This document shows, in pieces, positions 9,797 to 30,428 of a stretch of 64,000 nt of DNA. Below the pieces are notes generated by a model that worked only from the letters and a program-made list of their open reading frames with translations, did no database searches and was not told the DNA's origin. Within the stretch, counting starts at the first letter, position 1. The number at the start of each line of letters is the position of its first letter. Both the position numbers and the translations under genes were made by a program. The stretch lies in assembly GCA_965279665.1 (NCBI GenBank), contig OZ257256.1, positions 1,475,871 to 1,539,870 on the forward strand. Direction: 5' to 3'. This DNA is from Steroidobacteraceae bacterium (lineage in GTDB: Bacteria; Pseudomonadota; Gammaproteobacteria; Steroidobacterales; Steroidobacteraceae).

Positions 9797-9799
9797 ACG

Positions 9800-12252: not shown

Positions 12253-12276
12253 ATTACTCCACCCATACGTATGGGT
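12239..12276 (-). promoter_or_regulatory. candidate VapB autoregulatory operator
   Basis: A perfect 16-bp palindrome ACCCATACGTATGGGT (12261-12276) lies immediately 5' of vapB. An inverted repeat ATATGG-gtag-CCATAT (12239-12254) spans the start codons. Confidence 0.45.
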
Positions 12277-12433
12277 CATACTTCTGCGGCATCGCCGCGC
12301 CGCTCGACGGTTGAAGCATCGCAGCAACCCGGCGCGCCGCCTGACCCCCATTTGTGGCGCAAACGCCTGATTTCATTGCACCGACCCCGCTCGGCCACGT
12401 ATTATGTCGGGATAGGTCAAGGGGGGTTTCCCG

Positions 12434-18716: not shown

Positions 18717-19565
18717 GTGGAAGAGGTCGACGGTTTCAAAGCATTCACTCTCCGTTCACGGAGCTGCGCCCGCAGCGTCGCAAGAATCATGTTGAAGCGG
18801 GTTCGGCGGGATCGCAGCGTGGTGGCTGATGAATATCACCGCGGGCACTGGGCTCGGGTCTTGGAGCGTCGCGCGTGGGACGGCGCGTTCAATCTCGAAG
18901 CGTTTCTTGTCGGGGATGACGACCGCGAGATCTTCGCGCGCGCCGAGTCGCGAGTCCATCGAACACGCGTTCAGGATTACTATCGCTATCGTCTTCAAGC
19001 CTTGCCTAAGCTGCTTGAGGAGATGATCGGTGGGCGCGACGGGGTCGTCGAACTTGGGAGCGGATTTGGCTACAACCTCTTTGCGTTGTCGCTGGCCTGG
19101 CCAGGTTCCACGATGACTGGTCTTGAGCTCTCGGAGAATGGACTCGAGGCGGCGGGCGCAATCGCGGGGCATTTTCGCCTCGGCGACAGACTTCAGTTCA
19201 ACCAGATCGACCTCACGGTCCGGGGTCATCCCGGATTCGCAAGCGTTCGAGGGCGACCGGTGTTTACGTTCTTCTGTCTGGAACAGATTCCGTACGATAT
19301 CGAAGCAGTGGTCGCAAACATTCTCGATGCGCAGCCGTCGCGCATCGTGAACATCGAGCCAAGCATCGATATGTTTCGGCCATACCGATTCTCGGACTGG
19401 CCGAACTACCTGTACGTGAAGTCGGTGGACTACCAGACGCGCCTGACAGAAGTGCTAGCTTCGCTGGAGGCTCGTGGACGAATCAGAATCGTCGAGCGCC
19501 GCAGGATGCCGTTCTCGCCGACCATTCAGAACGAGGGTTTAGCAGTCGCATGGGAGCCGGTCTAA
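18717..19565 (+). CDS. class I SAM-dependent methyltransferase
   Basis: Motif I 'VVELGSGFGYNL' and motif II-like 'VFTFFCLEQIP'. It overlaps the next gene. Confidence 0.65.
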   Translation: MEEVDGFKAFTLRSRSCARSVARIMLKRVRRDRSVVADEYHRGHWARVLERRAWDGAFNLEAFLVGDDDREIFARAESRVHRTRVQDYYRYRLQALPKLLEEMIGGRDGVVELGSGFGYNLFALSLAWPGSTMTGLELSENGLEAAGAIAGHFRLGDRLQFNQIDLTVRGHPGFASVRGRPVFTFFCLEQIPYDIEAVVANILDAQPSRIVNIEPSIDMFRPYRFSDWPNYLYVKSVDYQTRLTEVLASLEARGRIRIVERRRMPFSPTIQNEGLAVAWEPV

Positions 19566-20149
19566 TGTCGATCGATGGTCTTGACTATTCTGCAGCCTTT
19601 CGCGCGGCGATTGACGCGGCTCGGGACCGGCTCGCGCGGTTGGTCGTAGAATCGGACCAAGTCGCCGCCGCAGCAGGCCTACTCATCGCGTGTTTCCGAG
19701 CCGGCGGCAAGGTCATGTTCTGCGGCAATGGCGGCTCAGCGGCCGACAGCCAACACCTTGCAGCCGAGTTCATGGGACGCTATCTCAAGGATCGCGATCC
19801 GCTACCGTCGATCGCACTGACCGTGGACACTTCGGCGCTCACGGCCATCGGCAACGACTATGGCTACGAGCAAGTGTTCTCTCGCCAGCTGCGCGGAATC
19901 GGTCGTGGCGGCGACGTCCTGGTCGGAATCTCCACGAGCGGTAACAGCGGGAACGTCGTGCGTGCGTTCGAGGCTGCACGTGAAATGGGCATCTCGACCC
20001 TGGCGCTCACTGGAGCGGGCGGCGGTCTCCTCGCTGATCTGGCCGATATCGCCATCAAGGTGCCGAGTTCGCGAACGAATGAGATTCAGGAGATGCACAT
20101 CATGATCGGCCACATGCTGTGCGGGTTCGTTGAGGACGCTGTTTGCTGA
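19565..20149 (+). CDS. gmhA: D-sedoheptulose-7-phosphate isomerase (SIS domain)
   Basis: 'FCGNGGSAADSQHLAAEF', 'LTVDTSALTAIGNDYGY', 'GISTSGNSGNV' and 'EIQEMHIMIGHMLC'. The ATG at 19565 overlaps the upstream stop (TAATG). An alternative ATG is at 19550. Confidence 0.9.
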   Translation: MSIDGLDYSAAFRAAIDAARDRLARLVVESDQVAAAAGLLIACFRAGGKVMFCGNGGSAADSQHLAAEFMGRYLKDRDPLPSIALTVDTSALTAIGNDYGYEQVFSRQLRGIGRGGDVLVGISTSGNSGNVVRAFEAAREMGISTLALTGAGGGLLADLADIAIKVPSSRTNEIQEMHIMIGHMLCGFVEDAVC

Positions 20150-21330
20150 AACAGGCTGCATTCCTTGTAGGAGGCATGGGAACCCGGCTGGGCGATCTCA
20201 CGAGATCGACACCGAAGCCACTGATCGACGTCGGCGGCAGGCCTTTCATCGACTACCTCATCGACGAGGTGGCTCGACACGGTTTCTCCGAGGTCCTGCT
20301 TCTGGCAGGCTACCTCGGTGAGCAGTTCGTCGCTCACTACGACGGCATGCAGCGGCTGGGCGCCACTATTCGTGTCGTGACCGAGCTGTCCCCCCTCGGT
20401 ACGGGCGGGGCAGTACGCGGCTCTCTTCAGCGGCTCGACCGGCAGTTCCTGCTCGCCAATGGCGATACCTTTTTCGATATCAATCTTCGCGCGCTGAGCG
20501 CGCCGCCGCCAGGCTACCTTACGATGGCGCTGCGCTCTGGGGTGGAAGGGGGGCGCTATGGGCGCGTCACCGCGGACGCAGGTCGAGTTCTGGGCTTTCA
20601 CCCGCCGGTCGACAGGCAGGCCGATCCGATCAACGCGGGCATCTACATCGTTTCCCGGGAGGTCGTGGAAGCGAGACCGGAAGGGCGGTCGTCAATAGAG
20701 CAGGATTGGTTTCCGGAATTGGCGTCTGCCGGACGCATCATCGGTTGTGAATTTGCCGGTTACTTCATCGACATGGGGGTGCCAGAGGATCTTGAACGCG
20801 CGCGGAGGGAACTACCGCTCCGAACCCGCCGGCCCGCGGTGTTCCTCGATCGCGACGGGGTCATCAACGTGGACCGTGGCTACGTGCATCGGCCCGAGGA
20901 GTTCGACTGGATCGATGGAGCCCAAGCTGCGATCAGGCTGTGCAATGACCTCGGCTACTTGGTATTCGTCGTATCGAACCAGGCAGGGGTTGCGCGCGGA
21001 TTTTATGGCGAGCAGGACGTTCGCGACCTGCACCGATGGATACAAGAACAGCTCGCAGTGCATGGCGCCCATGTCGATGCCTTCGAGTTCTGCCCGCACC
21101 ACCCCGATGGACGCATCGAGCCCTATCGGCGCAACTGCAGGCGGCGGAAGCCGGGTTCGGGCATGATCCAAGACGTCCTTGAGCGATGGCCCGTCGATCC
21201 TGCGAAGAGCTTGCTCGTCGGCGACAAGGACAGCGACATGGCGGCAGCGGTCGCTGCCGGGATCCGCGGGCACCAGTTCGAGGGCGGCAATCTGCTCGAC
21301 TTCCTGGCGCCGTACCTCGCGGAACGGTGA
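20143..21330 (+). CDS. bifunctional heptose-1-phosphate nucleotidyltransferase (HddC-like) / D,D-heptose 1,7-bisphosphate phosphatase (GmhB, HAD) fusion
   Basis: The N-terminal half has 'AFLVGGMGTRLGDLTRSTPKPLIDVGGRPF' (NTP-transferase G-loop). The C-terminal half has 'VFLDRDGVIN', 'VSNQAGVARG', 'CPHHPDG', 'RRKPGSGM' and 'VGDKDSDM' (GmhB/HAD motifs I-IV). Confidence 0.85.
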   Translation: MLKQAAFLVGGMGTRLGDLTRSTPKPLIDVGGRPFIDYLIDEVARHGFSEVLLLAGYLGEQFVAHYDGMQRLGATIRVVTELSPLGTGGAVRGSLQRLDRQFLLANGDTFFDINLRALSAPPPGYLTMALRSGVEGGRYGRVTADAGRVLGFHPPVDRQADPINAGIYIVSREVVEARPEGRSSIEQDWFPELASAGRIIGCEFAGYFIDMGVPEDLERARRELPLRTRRPAVFLDRDGVINVDRGYVHRPEEFDWIDGAQAAIRLCNDLGYLVFVVSNQAGVARGFYGEQDVRDLHRWIQEQLAVHGAHVDAFEFCPHHPDGRIEPYRRNCRRRKPGSGMIQDVLERWPVDPAKSLLVGDKDSDMAAAVAAGIRGHQFEGGNLLDFLAPYLAER

Positions 21331-21336
21331 GGGCGC

Positions 21337-22167
21337 TCAGAGCACCGACCGGCCGCCGTCGATTACGATGTTCTGGCCAGTCATGTAGCTCGACGCGTCC
21401 GAGCAGAGAAACTGCACGGCAGATCGGTATTCGTCGCGCATCGCCATGCGCCCCAACGGAATCAGGTCCGACAGGCGGCTGACAAACTCCTCACCCTGCC
21501 CATTGAATACGCCACCGGGTGATAGCGCATTGACGCGGACACCGTGGCGAGCCCAATAGGTCGCGAGGTACTTCGTCAGACCGACCAGCCCGTGCTTGAT
21601 GACCGAGTAAGTCACGGGCTTAACGGGCTGAAGCATCTCGTCGTCGAGATCGTCTCGACGGTAGAGGCGCTGGTCCGGTGCGATCACGGACAGGTCCGAA
21701 GCGATGTTGAGAATCACGCCCTGTCCGCGTCGGGCCATGGATGCCCCAAACGTGCGAGCGCAGAGCATCGCGCCAGTCAGCCCGACATCGATCTCGAGGC
21801 GCCACTGGTTCAGGTCGAAGACTTCGAGTCGGGTGCCATTGGCCACCCCCGGCGTGGCAGAGACCTTGGCGTCGATGGCAGCATTGTTGACCAGGATGTC
21901 GACCCTGCCGGCCAAATCGTGCAACGCGTCTATAGAGGCCAACGAGGTGACATCGAGGCGGTGGCCTTCCACCCGATTGCTGCCGGTTTCCTCCGCGACC
22001 GCACGCGCTGCAGCCTGAGCCCTGTCTTCGGCGATGTCGGCTATCAGCACTCTGGCGCCAAGCGCGGCCAGGGCAGCCGCGTGCTGCGGGCCGAGCAGTC
22101 CAGCGCCACCGGTGACGATCGCTGTGCGGCCTGTGAGGTCGAATTTGCGGTCAGGGGCTGTCGACAT
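21337..22167 (-). CDS. SDR-family oxidoreductase (PtmA-like; paralogue of 30421-31224)
   Basis: 'GRTAIVTGGAGLLG', 'YSVIKHGLVGLTKYLA' (YxxxK). It shares 'SDLSVIAPDQRLY' with 'SIYGIVAPDQRIY' of the other copy. Confidence 0.85.
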   Translation of the reverse strand: MSTAPDRKFDLTGRTAIVTGGAGLLGPQHAAALAALGARVLIADIAEDRAQAAARAVAEETGSNRVEGHRLDVTSLASIDALHDLAGRVDILVNNAAIDAKVSATPGVANGTRLEVFDLNQWRLEIDVGLTGAMLCARTFGASMARRGQGVILNIASDLSVIAPDQRLYRRDDLDDEMLQPVKPVTYSVIKHGLVGLTKYLATYWARHGVRVNALSPGGVFNGQGEEFVSRLSDLIPLGRMAMRDEYRSAVQFLCSDASSYMTGQNIVIDGGRSVL

Positions 22168-22185
22168 GAATGCACCTCGAAGCGA

Positions 22186-22944
22186 CTAGCCTCTGATCTG
22201 CCCACCGTCAGCGACATAGATCGCACCTGTGACGAATCCCGCCCGAGCCGACGCCAGGAACGCCACGATTGCCGCGACTTCCTCCGCAGTTCCGAATCGT
22301 CCGAGTGCGACGTCCTTTTCCAGCATGCTGCGGACACCCTCCGGATCTTTGGCAACGCGCTCCTGCCAACTGCCGCCGTCGAACAAAATGTTCCCTGGCG
22401 CTATCGCATTGATCCGGATGCCTTCCTTCGCCAAAGGGCGCGCCAAGCCGCGGACCGTTGCATTGAGCGCTGCCTTCGCTGCGGAGTAGGTCACCGGCGC
22501 GCCCAGCGCCTCGATACCGCAGATCGAGGATATGCAGACGATAGAGCCGCCACCAGTTGCACGCATCGCCGGTCTGACGGCCGCGATGACGTGCGTCGCC
22601 GACAGTAGATTGATGTCCAGCACGCGCTGCCACTCATTCGCGTCTTCCTCTCCAGGGGGTACCGACCTGCCACTGCCGACGTTGCAGACGGCGATGTCGA
22701 TGCGCCCCCAGCGATCCTCGGCCTCGCGGACGAAACGCGCAGCCTGCTGACGGTCTGTGGTGTCGCATCGGTGCGTTGACGCCGCCGCGCCAATTTGCGC
22801 TTGCGCTACCTCAAGTTGCTCGAGTGTACGAGCGGCGATGGCGACACTCGCGCCTTCAGCCACGAAGGCCCGCGCGATCGCTAGTCCGATGCCACGGCTC
22901 CCGCCTGCGACGATCGCCACCTTGCCTACGAGTTCGAGATTCAT
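22186..22944 (-). CDS. SDR-family oxidoreductase (FabG-like)
   Basis: 'GKVAIVAGGSRGIGLAIA', 'NVGSG' and 'YSAAKAALNATVRGLA'. Confidence 0.85.
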   Translation of the reverse strand: MNLELVGKVAIVAGGSRGIGLAIARAFVAEGASVAIAARTLEQLEVAQAQIGAAASTHRCDTTDRQQAARFVREAEDRWGRIDIAVCNVGSGRSVPPGEEDANEWQRVLDINLLSATHVIAAVRPAMRATGGGSIVCISSICGIEALGAPVTYSAAKAALNATVRGLARPLAKEGIRINAIAPGNILFDGGSWQERVAKDPEGVRSMLEKDVALGRFGTAEEVAAIVAFLASARAGFVTGAIYVADGGQIRG

Positions 22945-23789
22945 AATCGCCGCGCTGCCAGCCAGCCTGCCGTCATCGCTGCATACCCAGCGAGTACGCC
23001 CGCGTGATCACCGTCAGTCGCCCTCGCGGTCTGAAGGATAAAGCGTCCTTCAAACCTGGAGTCGCGGAGCAGCGCGAACGCTCGAGGCAGGTCGGCATTG
23101 CCAGTACCAAGCGGCACCGTGGTGCCACCGAGTACTCGGTCCTTGACATGGACGTTCCGGATGCGAGGTCCATATGCGGAGATCTCCTCGCCGCAGTCGA
23201 AACCCAATGCCGCACTGTTGCCGATATCGTAATTCACACCGAAGCAGTCGACGGGTAGTTGCTCGATGAATCGAGCGAGTTCCTGGGGTCCGTAGTCGCA
23301 CTCAAACGCGACGACAAGTCCGTCGCGCCTGAGGCGATCGGCGCGCGAGCCGAATTCGTTGGCCACCACCTGCTCATGATCGGAACTCGCCATGGCGCCA
23401 GCATCGACGAGAGGTACGACGACGATGCCGATGCCGGCCGCGGCACAGGCATCGAGGACGAGATCGAGCTCTGCGAGCCGCGTGGCACGCTCGGAGCCCG
23501 CGGTTCGCCAGAAGGGGGCCTGCATGAAGATGTCGCCGGTCAATGAGACCGGGCGCACGCCGTGTCGGCGAGTGAGCTCTGCGATCTCGCGCTGGCCCGC
23601 ATCCGTCAGCAAAGGGTTCTCGCGAAACCTCTCATGATCGAGAGTCCACTCGAGCATGCCGAGCCCGAGTGCCTCTGCAGCCGGGAACTCGTCGCGCCAG
23701 TGCGTCCAGGGAAACGCCTGGATGCGCCCGTCGACCAGCGGCGAGAGCCTGCCCTGCATGAAGCCGATTCGGTTGAGACTGCTCATCAC
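22941..23789 (-). CDS. sugar-phosphate isomerase/epimerase (xylose-isomerase-like TIM barrel, UlaE/SgbU-like)
   Basis: 'RIGFMQGRLSP...W..EF..A..LGLGMLEW', 'VAFECDY', 'VNYDIGNS' and 'VHVKDR' are typical of the AP_endonuc_2/TIM-barrel family. Confidence 0.7.
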   Translation of the reverse strand: MMSSLNRIGFMQGRLSPLVDGRIQAFPWTHWRDEFPAAEALGLGMLEWTLDHERFRENPLLTDAGQREIAELTRRHGVRPVSLTGDIFMQAPFWRTAGSERATRLAELDLVLDACAAAGIGIVVVPLVDAGAMASSDHEQVVANEFGSRADRLRRDGLVVAFECDYGPQELARFIEQLPVDCFGVNYDIGNSAALGFDCGEEISAYGPRIRNVHVKDRVLGGTTVPLGTGNADLPRAFALLRDSRFEGRFILQTARATDGDHAGVLAGYAAMTAGWLAARRL

Positions 23790-24556
23790 TGATCCACGGC
23801 GACCAAGCCATTCGCCGTCCAGCCGCCATCAATGAAGATTTCCTGGCCTGTCATGTATGCCGACGCGTCCGAGGCTAGGAAGACCGCTGCACCGGCGATG
23901 TCCTCCGGGTCGCCCCAGCGTCCCAGCAGGGTATGGCTCTGACGTTGCCGGTTCAGCGCAGGATCGTTGAAGCTCCTGTCCGTCATCGCCGTGTGCACAT
24001 AGCCTGGCGCCAGGCTGTTCACCCTGATGCGCTCACCTCCGAGGTCGACCGCGAGAGCGCGAGTGAGGCCTGCGAGTCCCGACTTCGCGGCCACGTAGCC
24101 CGGATTCCCGGGGAATCCCAGCCTCGAATTGATGCTGGTGATGTTGATGATGCTTGCTGCCTTCGAGCGGCGCAGCGCAGGTAGCAGTGCGAGTACCAGT
24201 CGATACGGTGCGATGAGGTCGACCTCGAGAGTCGTGCGCATGCGCTCGATCTCCCTCTCGGCATCCTGTGCGGGCGGCAGGCTGATCGCCGCGGCGTTAA
24301 CGAGGATATCGAGGCGACCCGATGACGAGTCGATCACGCGGCGCACGGCTTGCGGAGCGTCCGCGCTCCCGACGTCCAGCGAAAGGTGCCGAAGCCGCGA
24401 GGTATCGTGGCCGCCGCTGCGGCTGATCGCCAGCACGTCGGCTCCAGCGTTACAGAGGGCGAGCGCGATGGCCGCGCCTATGCCGCGAGAGGCGCCGGTG
24501 ACGACGGCTTGGCGGCCCTCAAGCGGCGGGCACATGGTCCGGTGCAAGTCAGACAT
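23786..24556 (-). CDS. SDR-family oxidoreductase
   Basis: 'GRQAVVTGASRGIGAAIA', 'NAAA' and 'YVAAKSGLAGLTRALA'. Confidence 0.85.
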   Translation of the reverse strand: MSDLHRTMCPPLEGRQAVVTGASRGIGAAIALALCNAGADVLAISRSGGHDTSRLRHLSLDVGSADAPQAVRRVIDSSSGRLDILVNAAAISLPPAQDAEREIERMRTTLEVDLIAPYRLVLALLPALRRSKAASIINITSINSRLGFPGNPGYVAAKSGLAGLTRALAVDLGGERIRVNSLAPGYVHTAMTDRSFNDPALNRQRQSHTLLGRWGDPEDIAGAAVFLASDASAYMTGQEIFIDGGWTANGLVAVDQ

Positions 24557-25250
24557 AGCCGTAACCGCGCATGATGGCCTCGCACAGCCGGATGTCTTCC
24601 GGCCGGTCGATCTGGAACATCTTATGGCGTTCCATCACGGACATGCCGATACGCCCGCCCAGCCGATTCATGGTCTGCCGGAGTTGGGACGGGCGAAACA
24701 CATAGAATGAACCATTCTCCAAGTAGCGCTTCTCGATCTCCTGGCGGCGGCGCCTGTTCCGCCAGTCGTAGTTGACGGACTCGGCGAGACCATCCGCGCT
24801 GACACGCCAGTTGAAGAAGTCCTCCACCTCGCAGACGGTCAGGACGCTGTCCAGCTTTTCCGTCGCCAGAAGCGAGATCGCTTGATCAATGTCCGATGGC
24901 TCGCGGATCGGCGACGTCGCCTGCATCGCGACCACGAGGTCGAACGTCCCGGACTGTCGTTCCCGCGCGTCGAGGGCGTGCAGCCAAGCCGACTCGGAAC
25001 TGGCAGTGTCGCCGGCGATGTCCGGTGGCCGCGGCACTGCCACTGCGCCGAAGGCCTGAGCAGTAGCGAGTATTTCGTCACTGTCGCTCGATACCGCGAC
25101 TTCGGCGATTGCGGCAGACGCGCGCGCCTGCTCGATAGACCAGGCCAGCAGCGGTTTGCCGCAAAGGTCGATGAGGTTCTTGCGGGGGATGCCCTTTGAG
25201 CCTCCGCGGGCTGCAATTACAGCAAGGATGCGCGGGCGCGAATCCTTCAA
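24549..25250 (-). CDS. acylneuraminate (CMP-ulosonic acid) cytidylyltransferase family, copy 1
   Basis: 'ILAVIAARGGSKGIPRKNLIDLCGKPLLAWSI' P-loop-like CTP-binding motif, 'MQATSPIR' and 'NGSFYVF'. Confidence 0.88.
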   Translation of the reverse strand: MKDSRPRILAVIAARGGSKGIPRKNLIDLCGKPLLAWSIEQARASAAIAEVAVSSDSDEILATAQAFGAVAVPRPPDIAGDTASSESAWLHALDARERQSGTFDLVVAMQATSPIREPSDIDQAISLLATEKLDSVLTVCEVEDFFNWRVSADGLAESVNYDWRNRRRRQEIEKRYLENGSFYVFRPSQLRQTMNRLGGRIGMSVMERHKMFQIDRPEDIRLCEAIMRGYGYV

Positions 25251-27169
25251 AGGTATGGCTCCAGCTTGTCGAGCGCCACCCAGAAGCCTTCGCCCAGGTT
25301 CTTGTGCCCCTGCCAGATCTCGGGAATGAAGCTCGCGTGCGGTGCATGGACTTGCATCGTCTCGCCGAGTGCCCGGAAGTCGATCTCACCGTCTCCAACC
25401 TGCAGGCCTTCGCCGTCCACGCCGCGCGCGTCGCCAAGATGATAGTGCGCCGTGTAGGGTCCGAGCGCCGCAATTCCCTGCAGGAAGTCGAATCCGAAGT
25501 GATTGGCCGCAAGCCGGGTATGGGACACATCGACGCACATTCGCAGACTGAGCTCCTCACAAACGTGAGCGGACTCTTCCGGGAGAATGAAGATGTTCTG
25601 GTGCCGCTGCCCCCCAAAATGCCACGGGAAAGGGGCCATCGTCTGCGGTATGAGTTCTACGCCATCGAGGTCAAGCTCGCGAAGGCTGCGAGCGAAGGTC
25701 TCGTACAGGCGGGGCTTCTCGGACCCTGCCAACGGCACGTCGGTAGAGAACCCACCGACGTTTGCCACGATCGGTGGTCGCTCGGTGCCGGGAAAGTAGG
25801 GCTTCAGCGCGCGCGTGATGTCGATGACGCGCTGGGTTTCGCGGATCGAGAACTGACGGTATTCCTCGTCGGCGGAAGCGAGGTCCATCAGTCTGCTCCC
25901 TGAAAACAGTTCCGGCGCGTGTACGACGAATCCTACCGAGTAGGTACCGGAGAAGTACGACGCCGGATCGCGGTCCATGTCCTGATAGCTCAGATGGAAC
26001 TCGATGACGTCGGGCTCGGACCGTGCGATAAATGCGAGGGCATCGTGGTACCGGACCGGCACGCCCCATGGACGCTTGAACCGGTAGCGGCGCAGCGCGC
26101 TGGCGTCGTCCGCGAGATCGGATGCGAAGAAGTAGTCGTCTGCACCCACTTTTCGGTGCAGACGGCGGCCTATGAGGCCCGGCAGGTTGATCGGTGAGAG
26201 TCCTTGGCCCGGGCTTCTGACAATAACGTCGGATTCCTCGACGAGATGACCGGCGGCCAGGTCGCGCGAAGCGACTAGGCTCTTCGCGAGATTCTCTCGA
26301 TTGATCAGTTCTCCCTGACTGAGCGGCCGTTCGCCGTCGACGCTGGCGACCCCCATGGCGCTCTCCACTTCTCGAATGCCAGTGACCAGCGACGCGAACT
26401 CCCCTGGCTCTAGGCTCGCGGCATGGTCAGGACCTTCCATAGTTCGGTCGAGCGTGATGTGCCGTTCTACGATGCAGGCGCCGAGTGCGACGGCGGCCAA
26501 GGTCACCGCGGTACCGCGCTCGTGACCCGAGTAGCCGATGACCGGATGCAGTTCGCGGAGCGTCTCCATGAAGCGCAGGTTGATGTTGTGGAATGCCGCC
26601 GGGTACGTGCTCTGGCAGTGCAGGAGCGCGAATGCCGCCGAGCGGGCACCGAGAAAGTTGACCACCGCCGTGATCTCGGCAAGACGGCTCATCCCGGTCG
26701 AAAGAACGAAAGGCTTGCCCGTGGCTGCGATCGCCCCGAGAAGAGGCAGATTCGTCAGGTCCGCTGATGCGACCTTGTAGGCCGGGACGTCGAAGGATTC
26801 TAGCGCTCGCAGGCTCGAGACGTCCCAAGGCGTGCACAGATATGCGATGCCGCGCTGGGAGCAGTATTCTTTGAGTCTCCGATGCTTTTCCGGAGGCAGT
26901 TCGAACCTGCGCAGCAGGTCGAGCGTGTACTCGACCGAGAGATCGTCCTCACTTCCGGCGAGGCTACGCGCTCGGTAGACTTCCTCGAGCTTGCGCATCT
27001 GGAATTTCGCGCAATCTGCCCGTGCGTCGACTGCAGCATCGATAAGAGAGATGGCCCGATCGAAGTCGCCGTTGTGGTTGTTGCCGACCTCTGCGATGAC
27101 AAAGCACGCTTCGCCAGGGCCGACACTCCGGTCGGCAATCCGCAGTTTGTTCGAAGGAAACTGGGTCAT
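25247..27169 (-). CDS. NeuB-family PEP-condensing ulosonic-acid synthase (NeuB + SAF) fused to a C-terminal xylose-isomerase-like TIM-barrel domain
   Basis: Starts at ATG 27169 ('MTQFPSNK'). The ORF-track extension to 27514 overlaps the upstream gene. NeuB motifs 'FVIAEVGNNHNGD', 'ADCAKFQ', 'YKVASADLTN', 'STGMS', 'LLHCQSTYP' and 'GYSGHE'. SAF-like 'LVASRDLAAGHLVEESDVIVRSPGQG'. A further ~290 aa follows ('IEFHLSY', 'VVHAPE', 'VANVGG', 'CVDVSHT', 'HYHLGD'). Confidence 0.85.
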   Translation of the reverse strand: MTQFPSNKLRIADRSVGPGEACFVIAEVGNNHNGDFDRAISLIDAAVDARADCAKFQMRKLEEVYRARSLAGSEDDLSVEYTLDLLRRFELPPEKHRRLKEYCSQRGIAYLCTPWDVSSLRALESFDVPAYKVASADLTNLPLLGAIAATGKPFVLSTGMSRLAEITAVVNFLGARSAAFALLHCQSTYPAAFHNINLRFMETLRELHPVIGYSGHERGTAVTLAAVALGACIVERHITLDRTMEGPDHAASLEPGEFASLVTGIREVESAMGVASVDGERPLSQGELINRENLAKSLVASRDLAAGHLVEESDVIVRSPGQGLSPINLPGLIGRRLHRKVGADDYFFASDLADDASALRRYRFKRPWGVPVRYHDALAFIARSEPDVIEFHLSYQDMDRDPASYFSGTYSVGFVVHAPELFSGSRLMDLASADEEYRQFSIRETQRVIDITRALKPYFPGTERPPIVANVGGFSTDVPLAGSEKPRLYETFARSLRELDLDGVELIPQTMAPFPWHFGGQRHQNIFILPEESAHVCEELSLRMCVDVSHTRLAANHFGFDFLQGIAALGPYTAHYHLGDARGVDGEGLQVGDGEIDFRALGETMQVHAPHASFIPEIWQGHKNLGEGFWVALDKLEPYL

Positions 27170-27180
27170 CCGGTCACCCG

Positions 27181-28629
27181 CTAGGCGATGGCATCGGCGC
27201 GGCCCGCACTCGTGCCCGCCCCAGCAATGTTGCCAAGCACGGGGGTCGCCGCCGCGGGTAATTCGGACAGCCGGGTGCGCCACGAACGCAGACCGCCGTC
27301 CTCGAACATCACCCTCTCGCAACGGTAGCCGCGACTCGACATGACGTCGAGGACCCGACACTGCTGGAACGGCGGCACGAAGAACATGAAGAACCCGCCG
27401 CCGCCGGCGCCGAGAATCTTGCCGCCGAGGGCGCCCTGGGCGATCGCGGTGTCGTAGATCCCGTCCAGTTCGCCATCGCTGATCATCGGGCTGTCCTGAC
27501 GCTTCAGGACCCATGCCTCATGCAGCAGGCGTCCATAACCGTAGACGTCGCCACGCAGCAGACGACGCTTCATTTCAAGAGTGAGTTCCTTGGTACGGCC
27601 GCGCGACGCAGCCGACTTGGCTCCTGGCGAGAGTAGTCTTGCGCGCTGATCCCGGTGAATGGCACCCGAGTCGTGCTTGCGGCCCGTGTAGCAGAGTAGC
27701 AGGGTCTCTTCGAGTTCCGAGATGGTCTTGGGTTCGAGACGCAGAGGAAAGATCACGTTGTGGTCCGCGGTGAATTCCATGAAGTTGAATCCGCCGAACA
27801 CCGCTGCATATTGATCCTGCCATCCGCCCGGAATGTTTAGGATCAGGCGCTCGGCCTGGAATGCCATTTCCGAGATCTGGTGCTTATCCCAGGGATCCGA
27901 CCGGAATTCGTTGAAGCAACCGATAACAGCCGCAGCGACAGAAGCGGATCCACCAAGCCCGGAACCAACTGGATAGTCAGCCGCCACTTCGATCTCGAAG
28001 CCAAAACCAGGCTGGATCATTTGAATCACCGAAACGATGAGGTCCAGTTCCCCGTTTAGCTCGAGGTCCGCTGGCGAGACCGCTTCGACCGTTCGCTTTA
28101 GGTCGTGAGAGTAGATTCGCACGCGCGAGTCGGTGCGGCGGCGCAGCGTGGCATGGGCATACTTGCGAATTGCGGCATTCATAACCACGCCGCCCTGATC
28201 GACGAAATAGTGTGTCAGGTCGGTTCCGCCGCCGCCGAAGGTGATACGCGCCGGCGCCCTGGCGCGCGCGAAAACTTCCTCCTCGGCGTCCGGACGGAAG
28301 TCGCTGCGGCTGCATAGATCAACGAGGCGGCGCTGGGTGTCCAAGATCGGTACGTGGTGCACGCGGTGGTCCAGCAGTTTCAGTATTTGTTCCCGCGCGG
28401 TGCCAGCAGCGGCCCAGATGAACTCCTGATTCATGAATGCTGCGAGGCTCGCTCCGAGGTCGTTGTCCGTGAGCAGCCGACGGCGAATGTCACCGTCGGT
28501 GATACAACCGACGATGCGGGCGTCGCTGTCGGTCGCGAACAAAATTCCCAGCTGGTTTGCGTTGAGTTGACGAAACGCCTCCTGGATCGTCGCTGCCGCA
28601 GGAATGCACACACTTCTCAACTTCGACAT
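27181..28629 (-). CDS. CBS-pair domain fused to a GHMP sugar kinase (HddA / heptose-7-phosphate kinase-like)
   Basis: The N-terminal ~115 aa form a CBS pair ('ARIVGCITDGDIRRRLL', 'HHVPILDTQRRLVDLCSRSDF'). The kinase part has 'RAPARITFGGGGTDLTHYF', 'DYPVGSGLGGSASVAAAVIG' (GHMP motif II) and 'GGKILGAGGGGFFMFF' (motif III). Confidence 0.85.
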   Translation of the reverse strand: MSKLRSVCIPAAATIQEAFRQLNANQLGILFATDSDARIVGCITDGDIRRRLLTDNDLGASLAAFMNQEFIWAAAGTAREQILKLLDHRVHHVPILDTQRRLVDLCSRSDFRPDAEEEVFARARAPARITFGGGGTDLTHYFVDQGGVVMNAAIRKYAHATLRRRTDSRVRIYSHDLKRTVEAVSPADLELNGELDLIVSVIQMIQPGFGFEIEVAADYPVGSGLGGSASVAAAVIGCFNEFRSDPWDKHQISEMAFQAERLILNIPGGWQDQYAAVFGGFNFMEFTADHNVIFPLRLEPKTISELEETLLLCYTGRKHDSGAIHRDQRARLLSPGAKSAASRGRTKELTLEMKRRLLRGDVYGYGRLLHEAWVLKRQDSPMISDGELDGIYDTAIAQGALGGKILGAGGGGFFMFFVPPFQQCRVLDVMSSRGYRCERVMFEDGGLRSWRTRLSELPAAATPVLGNIAGAGTSAGRADAIA

Positions 28630-28770
28630 ACAAGTCTCGATTCCCGACCGAATGGCCAGTTACCATATGATTTTGCCATATCGAGCCGGCGGAAAACCGA
28701 TGTCCGAAGCAATCTGTGTCTTGGTATCCAGGATCTGTGCGCGTGGTCACAGGGGTAGGCAATCCCTGTG
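28630..28770. promoter_or_regulatory. divergent control region between the two ulosonic-acid operons; inverted repeat over the SD/start of the plus-strand operon
   Basis: 138-bp gene-free spacer. CACAGGG (28748-28754) and CCCTGTG (28764-28770) form a 7-bp inverted repeat with a 9-nt loop. The repeat covers the AGGGG/GGTAGG SD-like purines and the GTG start (28768). Confidence 0.4.
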
Positions 28771-29739
28771 AGGATCCTGGTTGCCGGGACCGGTTCTATC
28801 GGTCGACGTCACGTGGAGTCCATTCGGGCGCTTCGCTCCGGAGCCGAATTCGTGTTCCTGCGACGCGATGTCCGCGCCGACGAGTACTCCCGGTCCCTCG
28901 GCGCGACCATCGCCACGGACATCGACGAGGCGCTGGCACTCCAGCCCGACATGGCCATCGTCGCCAATCCCTCGCATGGTCATGCTGAACTCGTGCTCAC
29001 ACTGCTGAAGGCCCGGATGCCTATGTATGTCGAGAAGCCGGTGGCGACGGATGCGTCGCAGATCGCGGCGATCCGCGGCGCAATGGTTCTGCAGGACCCG
29101 CCGACCGTTCTGTGCGGCTGCAACCTGAGGTTCCTGCCGGCGTTGCAGGTGTTGCGTGGACTGCTGCGAGACGGGCGAATCGGCCGTGTCGTCCGTGCCA
29201 CGTTCCAGGTCGGTCAGTGGCTGCCTTCGTGGCGTCCAGGGATCGATTACCGTCATTCGTACAGTGCCCGCCGCGACCTCGGTGGCGGCGTCGTGCTTGA
29301 TCTAGTGCACGAACTCGATGCGGCTCTCTGGTTACTCGGCGAGCTCGACGTTGCTGCGGCAGTGGGCGGCCATTGCAGCAGCCTCGAGATCCATAGTGAA
29401 GATGCGGCCTGGGTGCTGCTCTCGCGCCCGGAAGGTCCCGTCGTCGCTGTCGGCCTGGACTATATCGCGCGCCGTCCTCTGCGCCGGTACGAGTTCATCG
29501 GTGAGGACGGCACTTTGGTGATCGATCTAATCAGTCGCAGCATGGCTGTCGAGACGGCGTCGGGCATCGAGCCTGTCGAGATGCCCGAAGGTGCCTTCGA
29601 CATCGCGCAAACGTATCGAACAGCGATGACGGAGTTCATGGACGCCATGGCTCGCGGGTCGCAGACCAGCCAGGACCTGGCTGAGGGGCTGCGATCGGCA
29701 GAACTGGCCGTGCGTGCCAATGGAATGATCCGACAATGA
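28768..29739 (+). CDS. Gfo/Idh/MocA-family NAD(P)-dependent oxidoreductase (PtmF-like)
   Basis: 'MRILVAGTGSIGRRHV' Rossmann start and the 'VEKPVA' (EKP) motif. Confidence 0.85.
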   Translation: MRILVAGTGSIGRRHVESIRALRSGAEFVFLRRDVRADEYSRSLGATIATDIDEALALQPDMAIVANPSHGHAELVLTLLKARMPMYVEKPVATDASQIAAIRGAMVLQDPPTVLCGCNLRFLPALQVLRGLLRDGRIGRVVRATFQVGQWLPSWRPGIDYRHSYSARRDLGGGVVLDLVHELDAALWLLGELDVAAAVGGHCSSLEIHSEDAAWVLLSRPEGPVVAVGLDYIARRPLRRYEFIGEDGTLVIDLISRSMAVETASGIEPVEMPEGAFDIAQTYRTAMTEFMDAMARGSQTSQDLAEGLRSAELAVRANGMIRQ

Positions 29740-30428
29740 CCACGATCGCCACGATCTGCGCGCGCGGTGGATCCACGGGGCTGCCGCGAAAGAACATCCG
29801 GCCGCTGCTGGGGAGGCCCCTGATCGTCTGGACCATCCAGCAGGCGCTTGCGGTTCCGCGTATCGATGCCACCTTCGTCTCGACCGACGACGACGAAATT
29901 GCTGCCGTCGCCGCGGCCGCTGGTGCGCGCGTGCTCGGCCGGCGTCCGGCCCATCTCGCAACCCAGACGGCCCCAAAGATCCCGGTCATCGAGCACCTCG
30001 TGGGGCAGGTAGAAGCGACTGGGCTCGCCGTCGATTGCATCGTCGACCTGGATCCGACCTCGCCGCTGCGGGCGGTCACCGACATCGAAGCCTGCATCAA
30101 TCTGCTGACGGATGAAGTCGACGCGGTCATCACGGGATTCCCGTCTGAGAAGAATCCTTACTTCAACATGGTCGAGCAGCAGGCTGACGGGAACTTCAGG
30201 CTGGTGAAGCAGCCGCCGGGAGCAGTCGGTGGGCGGCAGCAGGCGCCACTGGTGTACTCCATGAATGCGTCCGTCTATGTCTGGCATCGACGGACGCTGG
30301 CGCTCGGATTGTGGGGAGGACGGGTGCGCCTGCACTCCATGCCGCGCGAGAGATCCATCGACATCGATTCGCTCCTCGACTTTCGTCTGGTCGAGATGAT
30401 TCTTCAGGAGAGGCTGGCGCATGACTGA
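29736..30428 (+). CDS. acylneuraminate (CMP-ulosonic acid) cytidylyltransferase family, copy 2
   Basis: 'TICARGGSTGLPRKNIRPLLGRPLIVWTI' and 'LDPTSPLR'. ATGA overlap with the upstream gene. Confidence 0.88.
   Translation: MTTIATICARGGSTGLPRKNIRPLLGRPLIVWTIQQALAVPRIDATFVSTDDDEIAAVAAAAGARVLGRRPAHLATQTAPKIPVIEHLVGQVEATGLAVDCIVDLDPTSPLRAVTDIEACINLLTDEVDAVITGFPSEKNPYFNMVEQQADGNFRLVKQPPGAVGGRQQAPLVYSMNASVYVWHRRTLALGLWGGRVRLHSMPRERSIDIDSLLDFRLVEMILQERLAHD

What the first reader, a model, noticed from the sequence alone, without database searches (positions are those of the whole stretch)
21337..28629. Orphan second CMP-ulosonic-acid operon whose product cannot be assigned from gene content
Seven tightly packed minus-strand genes encode, in order:
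- a CBS-GHMP kinase;
- a NeuB-SAF-TIM-barrel fusion;
- a cytidylyltransferase;
- an SDR;
- a UlaE-like sugar-phosphate isomerase/epimerase;
- an SDR;
- a PtmA-like SDR.

The operon carries the two hallmark enzymes of a CMP-ulosonic acid pathway: a PEP-condensing synthase and a cytidylyltransferase. It has none of the enzymes that make the classical aldose substrates. There is no NeuC-type hydrolysing 2-epimerase, 4,6-dehydratase, aminotransferase or N-acetyltransferase.

All of those lie in the divergent plus-strand legionaminic-like operon (28768-35461), which has its own NeuB and its own cytidylyltransferase. The locus therefore seems to make two different CMP-activated keto-sugars. The second does not match the Neu5Ac, Leg, Pse, Kdn or Kdo gene sets as I know them.

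The first gene of the operon is the kinase missing from the GDP-heptose gene set. That set (gmhA, hddC-gmhB) ends 6 nt from the operon's last stop codon (21330 versus 21337). Speculatively, the aldose partner could be heptose-derived or a reduced or epimerised sugar phosphate. That would give a higher-carbon or otherwise undescribed ulosonic acid.
Basis: partly seen in the sequence, partly recalled or inferred. Interest (0 to 1): 0.85.

Follow-up and report, generated by a model that had tools for sequence, protein, structure and literature searches.

The report
Widespread uncharacterised Kdn-like ulosonic-acid cassette
Next to an ordinary legionaminic-acid operon sits a seven-gene operon, found in hundreds of bacterial species but never characterised, that most likely makes a CMP-activated, sialic-acid-like sugar with no amino group, possibly with ten carbons built from a heptose.

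Summary
They are not an orphan. The NeuB-SAF-TIM-barrel synthase and its CBS-kinase partner occur in at least 583 species-representative genomes across phyla, including Bradyrhizobium, Leptospira, Bacteroidota and Chlorobium. Leptospira papers noticed the fusion in 2012 and 2016 and guessed it was an animal-like Neu5Ac pathway.

- **Product type.** The cassette's cytidylyltransferase carries the arginine that makes CMP-Kdn synthetases specific for a 5-hydroxy sugar. The synthase lacks the arginine that I recall as the N-acetyl contact in NmNeuB. The product is therefore Kdn-like, not Neu5Ac, Leg or Pse.
- **Sister clade.** CBS-NeuB-SAF-TIM plus a cytidylyltransferase alone, sometimes with ManC, looks like a minimal Kdn pathway in which the fused barrel is the phosphatase.
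- **Heptose link.** Only the kinase-type clade, to which this window belongs, carries GmhA, an HddA-like kinase, GmhB and HddC-like genes around the synthase, together with the tailoring enzymes.
- **Best reading (about 0.4).** Heptose-7-phosphate plus PEP gives a ten-carbon Kdn homologue, which is remodelled and then CMP-activated.
- **Main rival (about 0.3).** Ordinary nine-carbon Kdn that is remodelled, with the heptose genes serving a separate GDP-heptose.

Nothing here has been tested biochemically.

The parts
27181..28629 (-). G: CBS pair fused to an HddA/WcbL-like GHMP sugar kinase (482 aa)
   Evidence: Pfam finds CBS plus GHMP_kinases_N/C. The NCBIfam best model is HddA at 243 bits, below the cut-off of 600. 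The best PDB sequence matches are the heptokinases WcbL 4usk, 3k85 and C. jejuni 4n3o. The gene lies directly upstream of the synthase in 79 of 80 related genome loci.
25247..27169 (-). F: NeuB + SAF + xylose-isomerase-like TIM barrel fusion (640 aa). Predicted PEP-condensing synthase with a fused phosphoesterase.
   Evidence: The start at about 27169 comes from the translation and a 100% full-length match to P0001. The residues I recall as the NmNeuB catalytic set are conserved, while R314S, E134D, G133A, D214G, I28N and F288N are changes fixed across the clade. In the TIM domain, the AF2 model has pLDDT 83, and Foldseek hits ketose 3-epimerases, UlaE and endonuclease IV about equally. There are eight invariant histidines. 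This barrel family occurs almost only fused to NeuB-SAF.
24549..25250 (-). E: CMP-ulosonic acid synthetase of the Kdn type (233 aa)
   Evidence: Pfam finds CTP_transf_3. The PseF model scores 120 bits, below the cut-off of 206. The best PDB match is PpNeuA 9T4Z, a CMP-Kdn synthetase. An Arg aligns with the Kdn gatekeeper Arg196, whereas window LegF has Leu there (PMC12934254).
23786..24556 (-). D: classical SDR (256 aa). Its slot is taken by an aminotransferase in other phyla.
   Evidence: Pfam and NCBIfam matches are KduD, gluconate-5-dehydrogenase and FabG-like, all below cut-off. D is present in 48 type I loci. In 24 type II loci it is replaced by a class IV, class III or DegT aminotransferase.
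22941..23789 (-). C: stand-alone xylose-isomerase-like TIM barrel, of the ketose-3-epimerase/UlaE type (282 aa)
   Evidence: Pfam finds AP_endonuc_2. The PDB sequence match is UlaE 3cqh at E = 2e-5. The family invariants are E163, D188, H214, K216 and D217, the usual single-site pattern of sugar epimerases. C is present in 72 of 80 loci.
22186..22944 (-). B: classical SDR (252 aa)
   Evidence: Present in 67 of 80 loci. In the DegT-type variants a Gfo/Idh/MocA oxidoreductase replaces it.
21337..22167 (-). A: PtmA-like SDR (276 aa)
   Evidence: The best NCBIfam model is PRK09186. A is 45% identical to the SDR of the Leg operon at 30421-31224. Present in 70 of 80 loci.
19550..20149 (+). gmhA: sedoheptulose-7-P isomerase, convergent neighbour and proposed supplier of the aldose phosphate
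   Evidence: TIGR00441 scores 208.9 bits against a cut-off of 209.45, and PRK13936 scores 213.6. A SIS gene follows the synthase directly in most type II loci. SIS lies near 34 of 92 kinase-type loci and 0 of 27 CBS-type loci (Fisher p = 4.7e-5).
20143..21330 (+). hddC-like nucleotidyltransferase fused to a GmhB HAD phosphatase
   Evidence: Pfam finds NTP_transferase plus HAD. GmhB TIGR00213 scores 151.6, above the cut-off of 149.6. The N-terminal half best matches a mannose-1-P guanylyltransferase model (134.5) and HddC (111), both below cut-off. In other phyla the separate NTP-transferase and HAD genes have HddC and alpha-GmhB as their best models. The NTP-transferase gene sits directly upstream of the kinase in 19 of 24 type II loci.
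28630..28767 (.). 138-bp divergent intergenic region between the cassette and the legionaminic operon (presumed promoters)
   Evidence: Position only. The consensus scan found no sigma-70-like site.

Best explanation
The cassette makes a CMP-activated, deaminated (5-hydroxy, Kdn-like) ulosonic acid whose aldose part comes from heptose. That would give a ten-carbon homologue of Kdn, which is then stereochemically remodelled.

Proposed steps, all inferred:
1. GmhA turns sedoheptulose-7-P into D-glycero-D-manno-heptose-7-P.
2. The NeuB domain of F condenses it with PEP to a 3-deoxy-dec-2-ulosonate 10-phosphate. This is the same logic as A5P to Kdo-8-P and Man-6-P to Kdn-9-P.
3. The fused His-rich TIM barrel of F removes the terminal phosphate.
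4. SDRs B, D and A and epimerase-like barrel C oxidise, epimerise and re-reduce hydroxyl positions. In other phyla an aminotransferase takes the place of D and gives an amino variant.
5. E activates the acid with CTP.
6. The HddA-like kinase G, GmhB and the HddC-like transferase draw on the same heptose-7-P to make NDP-heptose. This may be a second donor for the same glycan, or (less likely) the actual feed to F.
7. The KpsF-like CBS pair on G would regulate this branch point.

Shown here: gene content, conservation, catalytic-residue conservation and specificity-residue patterns. Not shown: any substrate, product or activity.
For: **5-hydroxy, non-acetamido product**
- E aligns an Arg with the Kdn gatekeeper Arg196 of PpNeuA. 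An R196L mutation switches that enzyme to Neu5Ac (PMC12934254).
- Window LegF has Leu there, the Leptospira LegF-like enzyme has Val and the Vibrio Neu5Ac enzyme has Phe.
- The Arg is present in 55 of 69 cytidylyltransferases within 6 kb of kinase-type fusions and in 15 of 20 next to CBS-type fusions.
- E's best solved relative is the CMP-Kdn synthetase.
- F keeps the residues I recall as the NmNeuB catalytic set but has R314S. From memory, R314 contacts the N-acetyl group. F also has a more polar pocket.

**TIM barrel of F as phosphatase**
- The sister clade consists of only CBS-NeuB-SAF-TIM plus a cytidylyltransferase, sometimes with ManC (GMP/PMI). This holds in Ensifer pT173e and in 26 metagenome loci, none of which has an identified HAD phosphatase beside the synthase; the one HAD hit among them (L094) sits in a convergent kinase-HAD-nucleotidyltransferase set.
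- Characterised Kdn synthases use Man-6-P and need a phosphatase (PMC6200933).
- The barrel has eight invariant His, whereas barrel C has one.
- Endonuclease IV is among its best structural matches.

**Heptose supply**
- G's best PDB relatives are heptokinases.
- In Leptospira, Chlorobium and Bowmanella loci the neighbouring genes have HddC, alpha-GmhB, GmhA and HddA as their best NCBIfam models.
- The order HAD-NTP-KIN-NEUB-SIS has overlapping stop and start codons, so the synthase sits between hddA and gmhA.
- SIS is found at 34 of 92 kinase-type loci and 0 of 27 CBS-type loci (p = 4.7e-5).
- ManC is near only 2 of 80 kinase-type loci.
- The kinase-type synthases differ from the sister clade at pocket positions 138 (L/I against H/Y), 249 (A against K/R) and 250 (A against V).

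**Keto intermediate during tailoring**
- One gene slot holds either SDR D or an aminotransferase of three unrelated folds.

**Precedent**
- CMP-activated C10 ulosonic acids have been detected by MS in Magnetospirillum (preprint 10.64898/2026.04.20.719630).
Against: - There is no biochemical evidence for any step.
- The role of the kinase is unexplained if F uses heptose-7-P directly, yet the kinase is the gene most tightly linked to F (79 of 80 loci).
- Many Bradyrhizobium operons have no gmhA or nucleotidyltransferase within 10 kb.
- E is most like an enzyme for the nine-carbon Kdn.
- The window has a canonical ManC that could supply Man-6-P.
- The loss of basic residues at positions 138 and 249 could mean the substrate is not phosphorylated at all.
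- All heptose-family scores except GmhB are below NCBIfam cut-offs.
- The phosphatase role of the barrel rests on gene-content logic. Foldseek scores ketose epimerases equally well.
- The C10 acids reported in Magnetospirillum are diacetamido sugars, which is a different chemistry.
Confidence: 0.4

Rival explanations
1. Remodelled nine-carbon Kdn. F is a Kdn-9-P synthase/phosphatase that uses housekeeping Man-6-P, like its sister clade. B, C, D and A convert Kdn into an epimer or keto-reduced isomer (an amino-Kdn in other phyla), and E activates it. The gmhA, kinase, gmhB and hddC genes only make GDP-heptose for a heptose residue of the same glycan.
For: - The sister clade plus ManC looks like plain Kdn.
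- E has the Kdn gatekeeper and is closest to CMP-Kdn synthetase.
- A canonical ManC lies in the same locus at 48182-49603.
- Many type I operons lack nearby heptose genes.
- Kdn is a known bacterial sugar (PMC12934254).
Against: - This does not explain why the heptokinase is inseparable from the synthase (79 of 80 loci) while the other heptose genes can drift away.
- It does not explain why the synthase gene is inserted between hddA and gmhA with overlapping codons.
- It does not explain why GmhA never accompanies the CBS-type clade (0 of 27).
- It does not explain why the substrate-pocket residues differ between the two clades.
- ManC is rarely near kinase-type loci (2 of 80).
Confidence: 0.3
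2. Legionaminic-like route through the nucleotide sugar. [quoted passage not shown] The fused TIM barrel (or another cassette enzyme) releases free heptose from GDP-heptose or heptose-1-P right at the synthase. The NeuB domain then condenses the unphosphorylated heptose with PEP. The product is again C10.
For: - It uses all four heptose genes in one pathway.
- It explains the translational coupling of NTP-KIN-NEUB.
- Loss of K/R249 and H138 relative to the sister clade fits a substrate without a terminal phosphate.
- The Leg pathway offers the precedent of GDP-linked precursors and a CBS-bearing nucleotidyltransferase (PMC4481668; the rest is my recollection of Schoenhofen 2009).
- Endonuclease IV, a phosphodiesterase, is a structural neighbour of the barrel.
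Against: - The barrel would need a new activity, different from the one inferred for the sister clade.
- Activating a sugar only to hydrolyse it unmodified is wasteful.
- No NeuC- or PseG-type enzyme is present.
- No extended SDR or cupin of the kind that modifies GDP-heptose lies in the cassette.
- Many Bradyrhizobium operons carry the kinase but no nucleotidyltransferase within 10 kb.
Confidence: 0.12
3. Animal-like Neu5Ac pathway, the published Leptospira reading. The kinase phosphorylates ManNAc, the NeuB domain makes Neu5Ac-9-P, and the fused barrel dephosphorylates it.
For: - This was proposed for L. interrogans LA_1613, and Neu5Ac was detected in strain L1-130 grown in defined medium (PMC3438082; PMC4758666).
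- The idea that the barrel is a phosphatase is kept in my best reading.
Against: - The partner cytidylyltransferases, including those of two Leptospira species, carry the Arg that excludes Neu5Ac in PpNeuA.
- The synthase lacks R314.
- The kinase belongs to the anomeric heptokinase family, not the ROK ManNAc kinases.
- No ManNAc-forming enzyme or acetyltransferase is present in the cassette.
- F scores below the NeuB cut-off, at 321 against 400.
- L. interrogans itself was not examined here.
Confidence: 0.03
4. Accessory module of the neighbouring legionaminic pathway. The cassette supplies or modifies Leg (for example epimers such as 8-epi-Leg) rather than making its own sugar.
For: - The cassette lies next to Leg genes here and in Leptospira.
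- A is PtmA-like.
- Some variants also carry a PtmF-like Gfo/Idh/MocA oxidoreductase.
Against: - The cassette has its own synthase and its own cytidylyltransferase, with different specificity residues.
- It occurs without any Leg genes in Bradyrhizobium and in most of the loci examined.
Confidence: 0.05

Closest known systems
Kdn pathway (Kdn-9-P synthase, Kdn-9-P phosphatase, CMP-Kdn synthetase) of Bacteroides thetaiotaomicron and Prymnesium parvum
   Same: - A NeuB-family enzyme condenses PEP with a non-aminated aldose phosphate.
- A dephosphorylation step follows.
- The cytidylyltransferase has the Arg gatekeeper for a 5-hydroxyl.
   Different: - The phosphatase here would be a xylose-isomerase-like TIM barrel fused to the synthase, not a HAD enzyme.
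- The cassette adds a heptokinase, GmhA, GmhB and HddC-like genes, three SDRs and an epimerase-like barrel.
- The aldose may be a heptose.
Leptospira interrogans LA_1611-LA_1615 (nucleotidyltransferase, hypothetical protein, sas/neuB2 fusion, aminotransferase, neuA2), published as an 'animal-like Neu5Ac pathway'
   Same: - The same fusion synthase family and the same neighbours.
- It also lies beside a legionaminic cluster.
- Loci L057 and L074 from other Leptospira species show the full module.
   Different: - The Leptospira version is the aminotransferase (type II) variant, whereas the window has SDR D instead.
- The published functional reading is untested.
- That reading conflicts with the Arg gatekeeper seen in Leptospira homologues.
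[quoted passage not shown]
   Same: All four enzyme families are present around the synthase. Heptose-specific models or structures are their best matches, except the window's nucleotidyltransferase half, whose best model is a mannose-1-P guanylyltransferase.
   Different: - The kinase carries an N-terminal CBS pair.
- All scores except GmhB are below equivalog cut-offs.
- The genes are interleaved with a NeuB synthase, which is not known for any described heptose locus.
Kdo pathway (KdsD with SIS + CBS, KdsA, KdsC, KdsB)
   Same: The logic is the same: ketose-phosphate isomerase, then PEP condensation, then phosphatase, then CMP activation. The CBS pair resembles that of KpsF/KdsD.
   Different: - The synthase family differs (NeuB rather than KdsA).
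- The carbon number differs.
- There are extra tailoring enzymes.
CMP-legionaminic acid pathway (LegB, C, H, G, I, F with PtmA, E, F)
   Same: - A NeuB-family synthase, a CMP-transferase and a PtmA-like SDR.
- A CBS pair on an early enzyme.
- A GDP-type nucleotidyltransferase nearby.
   Different: - There is no dehydratase, aminotransferase, acetyltransferase or NeuC-type hydrolysing epimerase.
- F scores below the NeuB/LegI cut-off, whereas the window's own LegI passes it.
Kdo8N formation in Shewanella (KdnB oxidase plus KdnA aminotransferase acting on Kdo); from my own knowledge
   Same: It is a precedent for late oxidation and transamination of a finished ulosonic acid, as inferred for the SDR/aminotransferase slot.
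   Different: The enzyme families differ, and the sugar has eight carbons.

Membership tests
N-acetylneuraminate/legionaminate synthase (NCBIfam TIGR03569 NeuB_NnaB equivalog) | Whole-protein score at or above the curated cut-off of 399.65 bits | tested here: not met
   F scores 321.2 bits. The window's LegI at 31224-32249 scores 414.8.
NeuB family (Pfam PF03102): catalytically competent PEP-condensing enzyme | Metal, PEP and catalytic residues of NmNeuB as I recall them (E25, K53, Q55, T110, K129, S132, S154, Y186, S213, H215, E234, H236, D247) | tested here: met
   All of these positions, taken from my memory of the NmNeuB structure paper, are conserved in F and in eight distant homologues.
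N-acetylated-substrate NulO synthases (NeuB, LegI) | Arg314 of the SAF domain. From memory of the NmNeuB structure paper, this residue contacts the N-acetyl group of ManNAc. PDB entries 4ipi and 4ipj are variants at this residue. | tested here: not met
   The position is Ser in F and in all kinase-type homologues, and Ser or Ala in the CBS-type clade. It is Arg in NmNeuB and in the window's LegI.
Pseudaminic acid synthase PseI (TIGR03586) | Score at or above 340.25 bits | tested here: not met
   225.1 bits.
Kdn-specific CMP-sialic acid synthetases | Arg at the position of PpNeuA Arg196, the gatekeeper for the 5-hydroxyl | tested here: met
   E reads ...TMNRLGG..., aligned with KCRLGE of PpNeuA. 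The Arg is present in 55 of 69 cassette-linked homologues. The role of the residue comes from PMC12934254.
Kdn-specific CMP-sialic acid synthetases | Absence of the Lys that is invariant in Neu5Ac-specific enzymes (NmCMAS Lys16; Val23 in PpNeuA) | tested here: not met
   E and its homologues keep Lys (GGSKGIPRKN).
Heptose-7-phosphate kinase HddA (NCBIfam NF049969) | Score at or above 600 bits, and closest relatives being heptokinases | tested here: inconclusive
   G scores 242.8 bits, which is the best model but below the cut-off. The top PDB matches are the heptokinases WcbL, 3k85 and CjHddA.
Sedoheptulose-7-P isomerase GmhA (TIGR00441) | Score at or above 209.45 bits | tested here: inconclusive
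   208.9 bits, just under the cut-off. Type II homologues score 164-171.
GmhB heptose bisphosphate phosphatase (TIGR00213 subfamily) | Score at or above 149.6 bits | tested here: met
   151.6 bits for the C-terminal half of 20143-21330, and 163.9 for the Leptospira stand-alone HAD.
HddC heptose-1-P guanylyltransferase (NF049965) | Score at or above 300 bits | tested here: not met
   The window protein scores 111 bits, with a mannose-1-P guanylyltransferase model scoring higher at 134.5. Type II homologues have HddC as their best model at 117-145 bits.
Legionaminic acid pathway | Presence of LegB-, LegC-, LegH- and LegG-type enzymes feeding the synthase | tested here: not met
   None of these lies in 21337-28629. 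LegC, LegH and LegG are encoded in the separate plus-strand operon; the candidate LegB-type 4,6-dehydratase (PglF-like) lies outside it at 46158-48146.
Endonuclease IV-type phosphoesterase, compared with ketose 3-epimerase, for the TIM barrel of F | Trinuclear metal site and phosphoester hydrolysis | not testable with these tools
   Foldseek gives both groups TM scores of 0.6-0.68. Sequence search finds only MJ1311, of unknown function. The eight invariant His are suggestive only.

The most novel reading that the evidence does not exclude
The kinase-type NeuB-TIM cassette makes a new class of bacterial sugar: CMP-activated ten-carbon 3-deoxy-ulosonic acids (Kdn homologues) built from sedoheptulose-7-P through heptose. 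Hydroxy (type I) and amino or methylated (type II) variants would be present in hundreds of species, including soybean symbionts (Bradyrhizobium) and pathogenic Leptospira. The synthase would carry a new kind of fused TIM-barrel sugar-acid phosphatase.
Probability: 0.45. Interest if true: 0.85.

Novelty: new variant of a known kind. Interest (0 to 1): 0.7.

Why it matters
- Sialic-acid-like sugars decide how bacterial surfaces are seen by hosts, phages and immune systems, and their pathways are drug and vaccine targets.
- This cassette is common (at least 583 species-representative genomes and at least 581 metagenome loci for the wider family). It sits in agriculturally and medically important genera, and no product has been assigned to it.
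- The analysis gives a concrete, testable prediction: a 5-hydroxy, Kdn-type acid, probably C10 and heptose-derived.
- It gives a reason to doubt the published Neu5Ac reading in Leptospira.
- It offers a candidate new phosphatase type in the xylose-isomerase-like fold.
- It offers a simple sister system (CBS-NeuB-TIM plus a cytidylyltransferase) in which to test that phosphatase.
- If the C10 reading holds, it extends the Kdo (C8) and Kdn (C9) series by one member. It would also provide genes for the 'higher-carbon' CMP-ulosonic acids that mass spectrometry has begun to detect.

Tried and rejected
- **Literature.** I searched for a characterised pathway with terms for NeuB plus heptose, GHMP or GmhA, for deculosonic acids, for Bradyrhizobium neuB, for Leptospira, for Kdn synthase and for teichulosonic acid. 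No paper characterises the cassette. There are only the two Leptospira mentions, plus a preprint reporting CMP-C10 acids in Magnetospirillum with no genes assigned in the parts I read.
- **Schoenhofen 2009.** The paper could not be retrieved, so the roles of PtmA and PtmF rest on secondary sources and on memory.
- **Host organism.** A Pgi search shows only distant named relatives, at about 65% identity to Steroidobacteraceae and gammaproteobacterial MAGs. No known glycan structure can therefore be linked.
- **TIM domain of F.** Sequence and profile searches of the PDB find only MJ1311, of unknown function. The AF2 model plus Foldseek could not separate epimerase from phosphoesterase.
- **Promoter and terminator scan.** It was uninformative.
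- **My first crude gene caller.** It failed in high-GC loci, so I replaced it with role-based tblastn.
- **Bradyrhizose as the product.** I considered this and dropped it. As I recall it, bradyrhizose is an aldose without a carboxylate and so needs no CMP activation, and it is known only from photosynthetic strains, whereas the cassette is in many other Bradyrhizobium.
- **Heptose-type enzymes acting on the ulosonic acid itself** (kinase on O2, then an NDP-ulosonate). I rejected this because GmhA chemistry needs a C1 hydroxymethyl group and the cassette has its own CMP-transferase.

Full report
**1. Observation**

- G: CBS pair plus GHMP kinase.
- F: NeuB-SAF-xylose-isomerase-like TIM barrel.
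- E: CTP_transf_3 cytidylyltransferase.
- D: SDR.
- C: AP_endonuc_2 TIM barrel.
- B: SDR.
- A: SDR.

Neighbouring genes overlap by a few bases or are 11-18 nt apart.

The longest ORF of F runs into the kinase gene. The conserved start is near 27169, which gives 640 aa and matches a database protein exactly over its full length.

On the other strand, gmhA (19550-20149) and a fused hddC-like/gmhB gene (20143-21330) end 6 nt from the stop codon of A.

The divergent plus-strand operon 28768-35461 is a canonical legionaminic set: PtmF-like Gfo/Idh/MocA, LegF, PtmA-like SDR, LegI (415 bits, above the NeuB cut-off), LegG, LegH and a CBS-LegC fusion. It contains no 4,6-dehydratase. A PglF-like one lies at 46158-48146.

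The whole stretch from about 12 to 50 kb is a polysaccharide locus. It holds a Wza-like exporter, a Wzz-like protein, glycosyltransferases, a KpsS-like protein and ManC.

**2. The cassette is widespread**

These include many Bradyrhizobium, Leptospira, Mycobacteriaceae, Bacteroidota, Chlorobium, Nitrospirota and Burkholderiales.

I ran tblastn with role-specific queries on 80 loci. The counts were:

| Role | Loci out of 80 |
|---|---|
| Kinase directly upstream of the synthase | 79 |
| Barrel C | 72 |
| SDR A | 70 |
| SDR B | 67 |
| Cytidylyltransferase | 67 |
| HddC-like nucleotidyltransferase | 59 |
| GmhB-like HAD | 37 |
| GmhA-like SIS | 28 |

Two layouts exist.
- **Type I** (48 loci, including this window and Bradyrhizobium) has the order KIN-NEUB-CMP-SDR_D-TIM-SDR_B-SDR_A.
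- **Type II** (24 loci from other phyla) has the order (HAD)-NTP-KIN-NEUB-SIS-(CMP)-aminotransferase-(methyltransferase)-TIM-SDR_B-SDR_A.

In type II the aminotransferase is class IV in 14 loci and class III or DegT in 7 each (four loci carry two kinds). One slot filled either by a reductase or by three unrelated aminotransferase folds points to a keto intermediate.

In low-GC genomes the NTP, KIN, NEUB and SIS genes overlap at their stop and start codons.

One Bradyrhizobium locus with called genes shows the seven-gene operon alone, with no heptose genes within 10 kb.

**3. Prior literature**

No paper characterises the cassette.

Ricaldi et al. [quoted passage not shown] They proposed an animal-like Neu5Ac-9-P synthase/phosphatase (PMC3438082). 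Fouts et al. 2016 repeat this and list LA_1611 (nucleotidyltransferase), LA_1612 (hypothetical), LA_1613 (sas/neuB2), LA_1614 (aminotransferase) and LA_1615 (neuA2) next to the Leg genes (PMC4758666). That is the type II module.

A 2026 preprint reports CMP-activated C10 ulosonic acids in Magnetospirillum by mass spectrometry. They are diacetamido species, and no genes were linked to them in the sections I read.

**4. What kind of sugar**

*The synthase.* The NeuB domain of F keeps the residues I recall as the metal, PEP and catalytic set of N. meningitidis NeuB. All members of the clade have I28N, G133A, E134D, D214G, F288N and R314S, relative both to NmNeuB and to the window's own LegI. From my memory of the NmNeuB structure, R314 contacts the N-acetyl group of ManNAc. 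Its loss and a more polar pocket fit a non-acetamido aldose.

*The cytidylyltransferase.* Among solved structures, E is most similar to PpNeuA (9T4Z), the CMP-Kdn synthetase of Prymnesium parvum. That paper shows three things (PMC12934254):
- Arg196 is the gatekeeper for the 5-hydroxyl.
- It is found only in Kdn-specific enzymes, including those of the Kdn producers Klebsiella ozaenae, Brevibacterium and Streptomyces albus.
- R196L switches the enzyme to Neu5Ac.

E aligns an Arg with Arg196. So do the Bradyrhizobium, Ensifer, Leptospira and Bacteroidota homologues. The window's LegF has Leu, a Leptospira LegF-like enzyme has Val and Vibrio CMAS has Phe.

Across all loci the Arg is present in 55 of 69 cytidylyltransferases within 6 kb of a kinase-type fusion and in 15 of 20 next to CBS-type fusions. 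It is present in only 1 of the 14 cytidylyltransferase genes lying more than 6 kb from the fusion.

The second Kdn signature, loss of a conserved Lys, is not met.

I conclude that the product carries a 5-hydroxyl, like Kdn. The Neu5Ac reading for this family is therefore unlikely. L. interrogans itself was not examined.

**5. The fused TIM barrel**

A search of 1.84 billion representative proteins finds 832 clusters for this barrel. Nearly all are NeuB-SAF-TIM (about 620-640 aa) or CBS-NeuB-SAF-TIM (about 730-770 aa).

In Ensifer canadensis pT173e the CBS-type gene sits between a cytidylyltransferase with the motif KCRLG and glycosyltransferases. ManC (GMP/PMI) lies just upstream, and there is no kinase, SIS, SDR or HAD.

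In 26 metagenome loci of this type the core is simply CMP-transferase plus CBS-NeuB-SAF-TIM.

Characterised Kdn synthases use Man-6-P and need a separate phosphatase (PMC6200933). The most economical reading is therefore that the fused barrel is that phosphatase.

Supporting but not decisive points:
- The barrel has eight invariant histidines, whereas barrel C has the ordinary Glu/Asp/His pattern of sugar epimerases.
- Endonuclease IV is among its best Foldseek matches, on a par with ketose 3-epimerases and UlaE (AF2 pLDDT 83).
- Sequence searches reach only MJ1311, of unknown function.

**6. The heptose link**

- G's kinase domain is closest to the heptokinases WcbL, 3k85 and C. jejuni HddA.
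- The window's gmhA scores 208.9 against a cut-off of 209.45, and the GmhB half passes its cut-off.
- In Leptospira, Chlorobium and Bowmanella the separate NTP, HAD, SIS and KIN genes all have the heptose-specific NCBIfam models as their best hits.
- The association is clade-specific. A SIS gene is near 34 of 92 kinase-type loci and 0 of 27 CBS-type loci (Fisher p = 4.7e-5). ManC is near only 2 of 80 kinase-type loci.
- The kinase-type synthases differ from the CBS-type at pocket positions 138, 249 and 250, where bulky or basic residues become Leu, Ala and Ala.
- In several metagenome loci CBS-KIN-NEUB is collinear with the CBS-NEUB of the sister clade, as if the kinase had been inserted between the two.

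**7. Mechanism**

The best-supported reading extends the series A5P to Kdo-8-P and Man-6-P to Kdn-9-P by one carbon:
1. GmhA supplies heptose-7-P.
2. The NeuB domain of F condenses it with PEP.
3. The fused barrel dephosphorylates the product.
4. B, C, D and A remodel hydroxyl stereochemistry through keto intermediates.
5. E activates the acid.
6. G, GmhB and the HddC-like enzyme divert heptose-7-P to NDP-heptose.

The weak point is the kinase. It is the gene most tightly bound to the synthase, yet this scheme does not need it for the acid itself.

A variant in which GDP-heptose or heptose-1-P is the feed and the barrel releases free heptose uses all the genes, but it requires a new activity for the barrel.

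The main rival is that F still uses Man-6-P, so the product is a remodelled Kdn and the heptose genes serve a separate residue.

My estimates are:

| Reading | Probability |
|---|---|
| Heptose-7-P route | about 0.40 |
| Route through the nucleotide sugar | about 0.12 |
| Remodelled C9 Kdn | about 0.30 |
| Other readings | the remainder |

No step has been tested.

**8. Verdict**

This is a genuine second, uncharacterised CMP-ulosonic-acid pathway, and the heptose link is conserved. It is neither an orphan nor unrelated to Kdn, and it was noticed before in Leptospira.

It is a new variant of a known kind, the NeuB-type ulosonic acid pathway. It makes a concrete and testable prediction of a new sugar and a new phosphatase type.

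Noticed in passing
window 33794-35461 and 27181-28629; L083 11611-13965: A KpsF-like CBS pair is fused to the LegC aminotransferase and to kinase G in this window. In the sister clade it is fused to the NeuB-SAF-TIM synthase itself. The CBS pair seems to move between early enzymes of nonulosonic-acid pathways and may be a shared feedback sensor.
   Followed up: partly
window 40169-41848: A protein with a Capsule_synth (KpsS/KpsC-like, PF05159) domain lies downstream of the Leg operon. It is a candidate transferase for one of the two CMP-ulosonic acids.
   Followed up: no
window 35458-36993, 38172-39059, 39081-40472, 18717-19565: Four sizeable ORFs inside the polysaccharide locus have no Pfam match. 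They may be a polymerase, a flippase or novel glycosyltransferases.
   Followed up: no
window 46158-48146 and 48182-49603: A PglF/PseB-like 4,6-dehydratase, whose N-terminal region matches polyprenyl sugar-phosphotransferase models, is followed by a bifunctional ManC (GMP/PMI). The dehydratase is probably the missing first step of the Leg pathway.
   Followed up: partly
loci L001-L080 (for example L057 14029-15012, L067 13516-14916, L080 13278-14480): The same slot of the cassette is filled by SDR D (type I) or by aminotransferases of three unrelated folds: class IV, class III and DegT. This is a clear case of non-orthologous displacement. The variants that were aligned (DegT: L059, L080; class III: L067) also use a different cytidylyltransferase that lacks the Arg gatekeeper.
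   Followed up: partly
L083 (Ensifer canadensis pT173e) 9408-15569: manC, a cytidylyltransferase with the PpNeuA-like KCRLG motif, CBS-NeuB-SAF-TIM and a GT4 form what looks like a minimal Kdn cluster. The record has no annotation in the plasmid collection.
   Followed up: partly
L081 4301-8405 (Bradyrhizobium): Upstream of the stand-alone seven-gene operon lie an N-acylglucosamine 2-epimerase-family gene, an AMP-binding enzyme and a NodU/CmcH-type carbamoyltransferase. Any link to the cassette is unknown.
   Followed up: no
literature: PMC3438082, Figure 2: DMB-labelled peaks of m/z 407 and 440 from Leptospira were left unassigned in 2012. They may be worth re-examining in the light of a non-standard ulosonic acid from this cassette.
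   Followed up: no
whole window: The host appears to be an unnamed lineage. Its phosphoglucose isomerase has no named relative above about 65% identity (Steroidobacteraceae and gammaproteobacterial MAGs). G+C content is even at 60-69% across the window, so the locus does not look recently acquired.
   Followed up: partly
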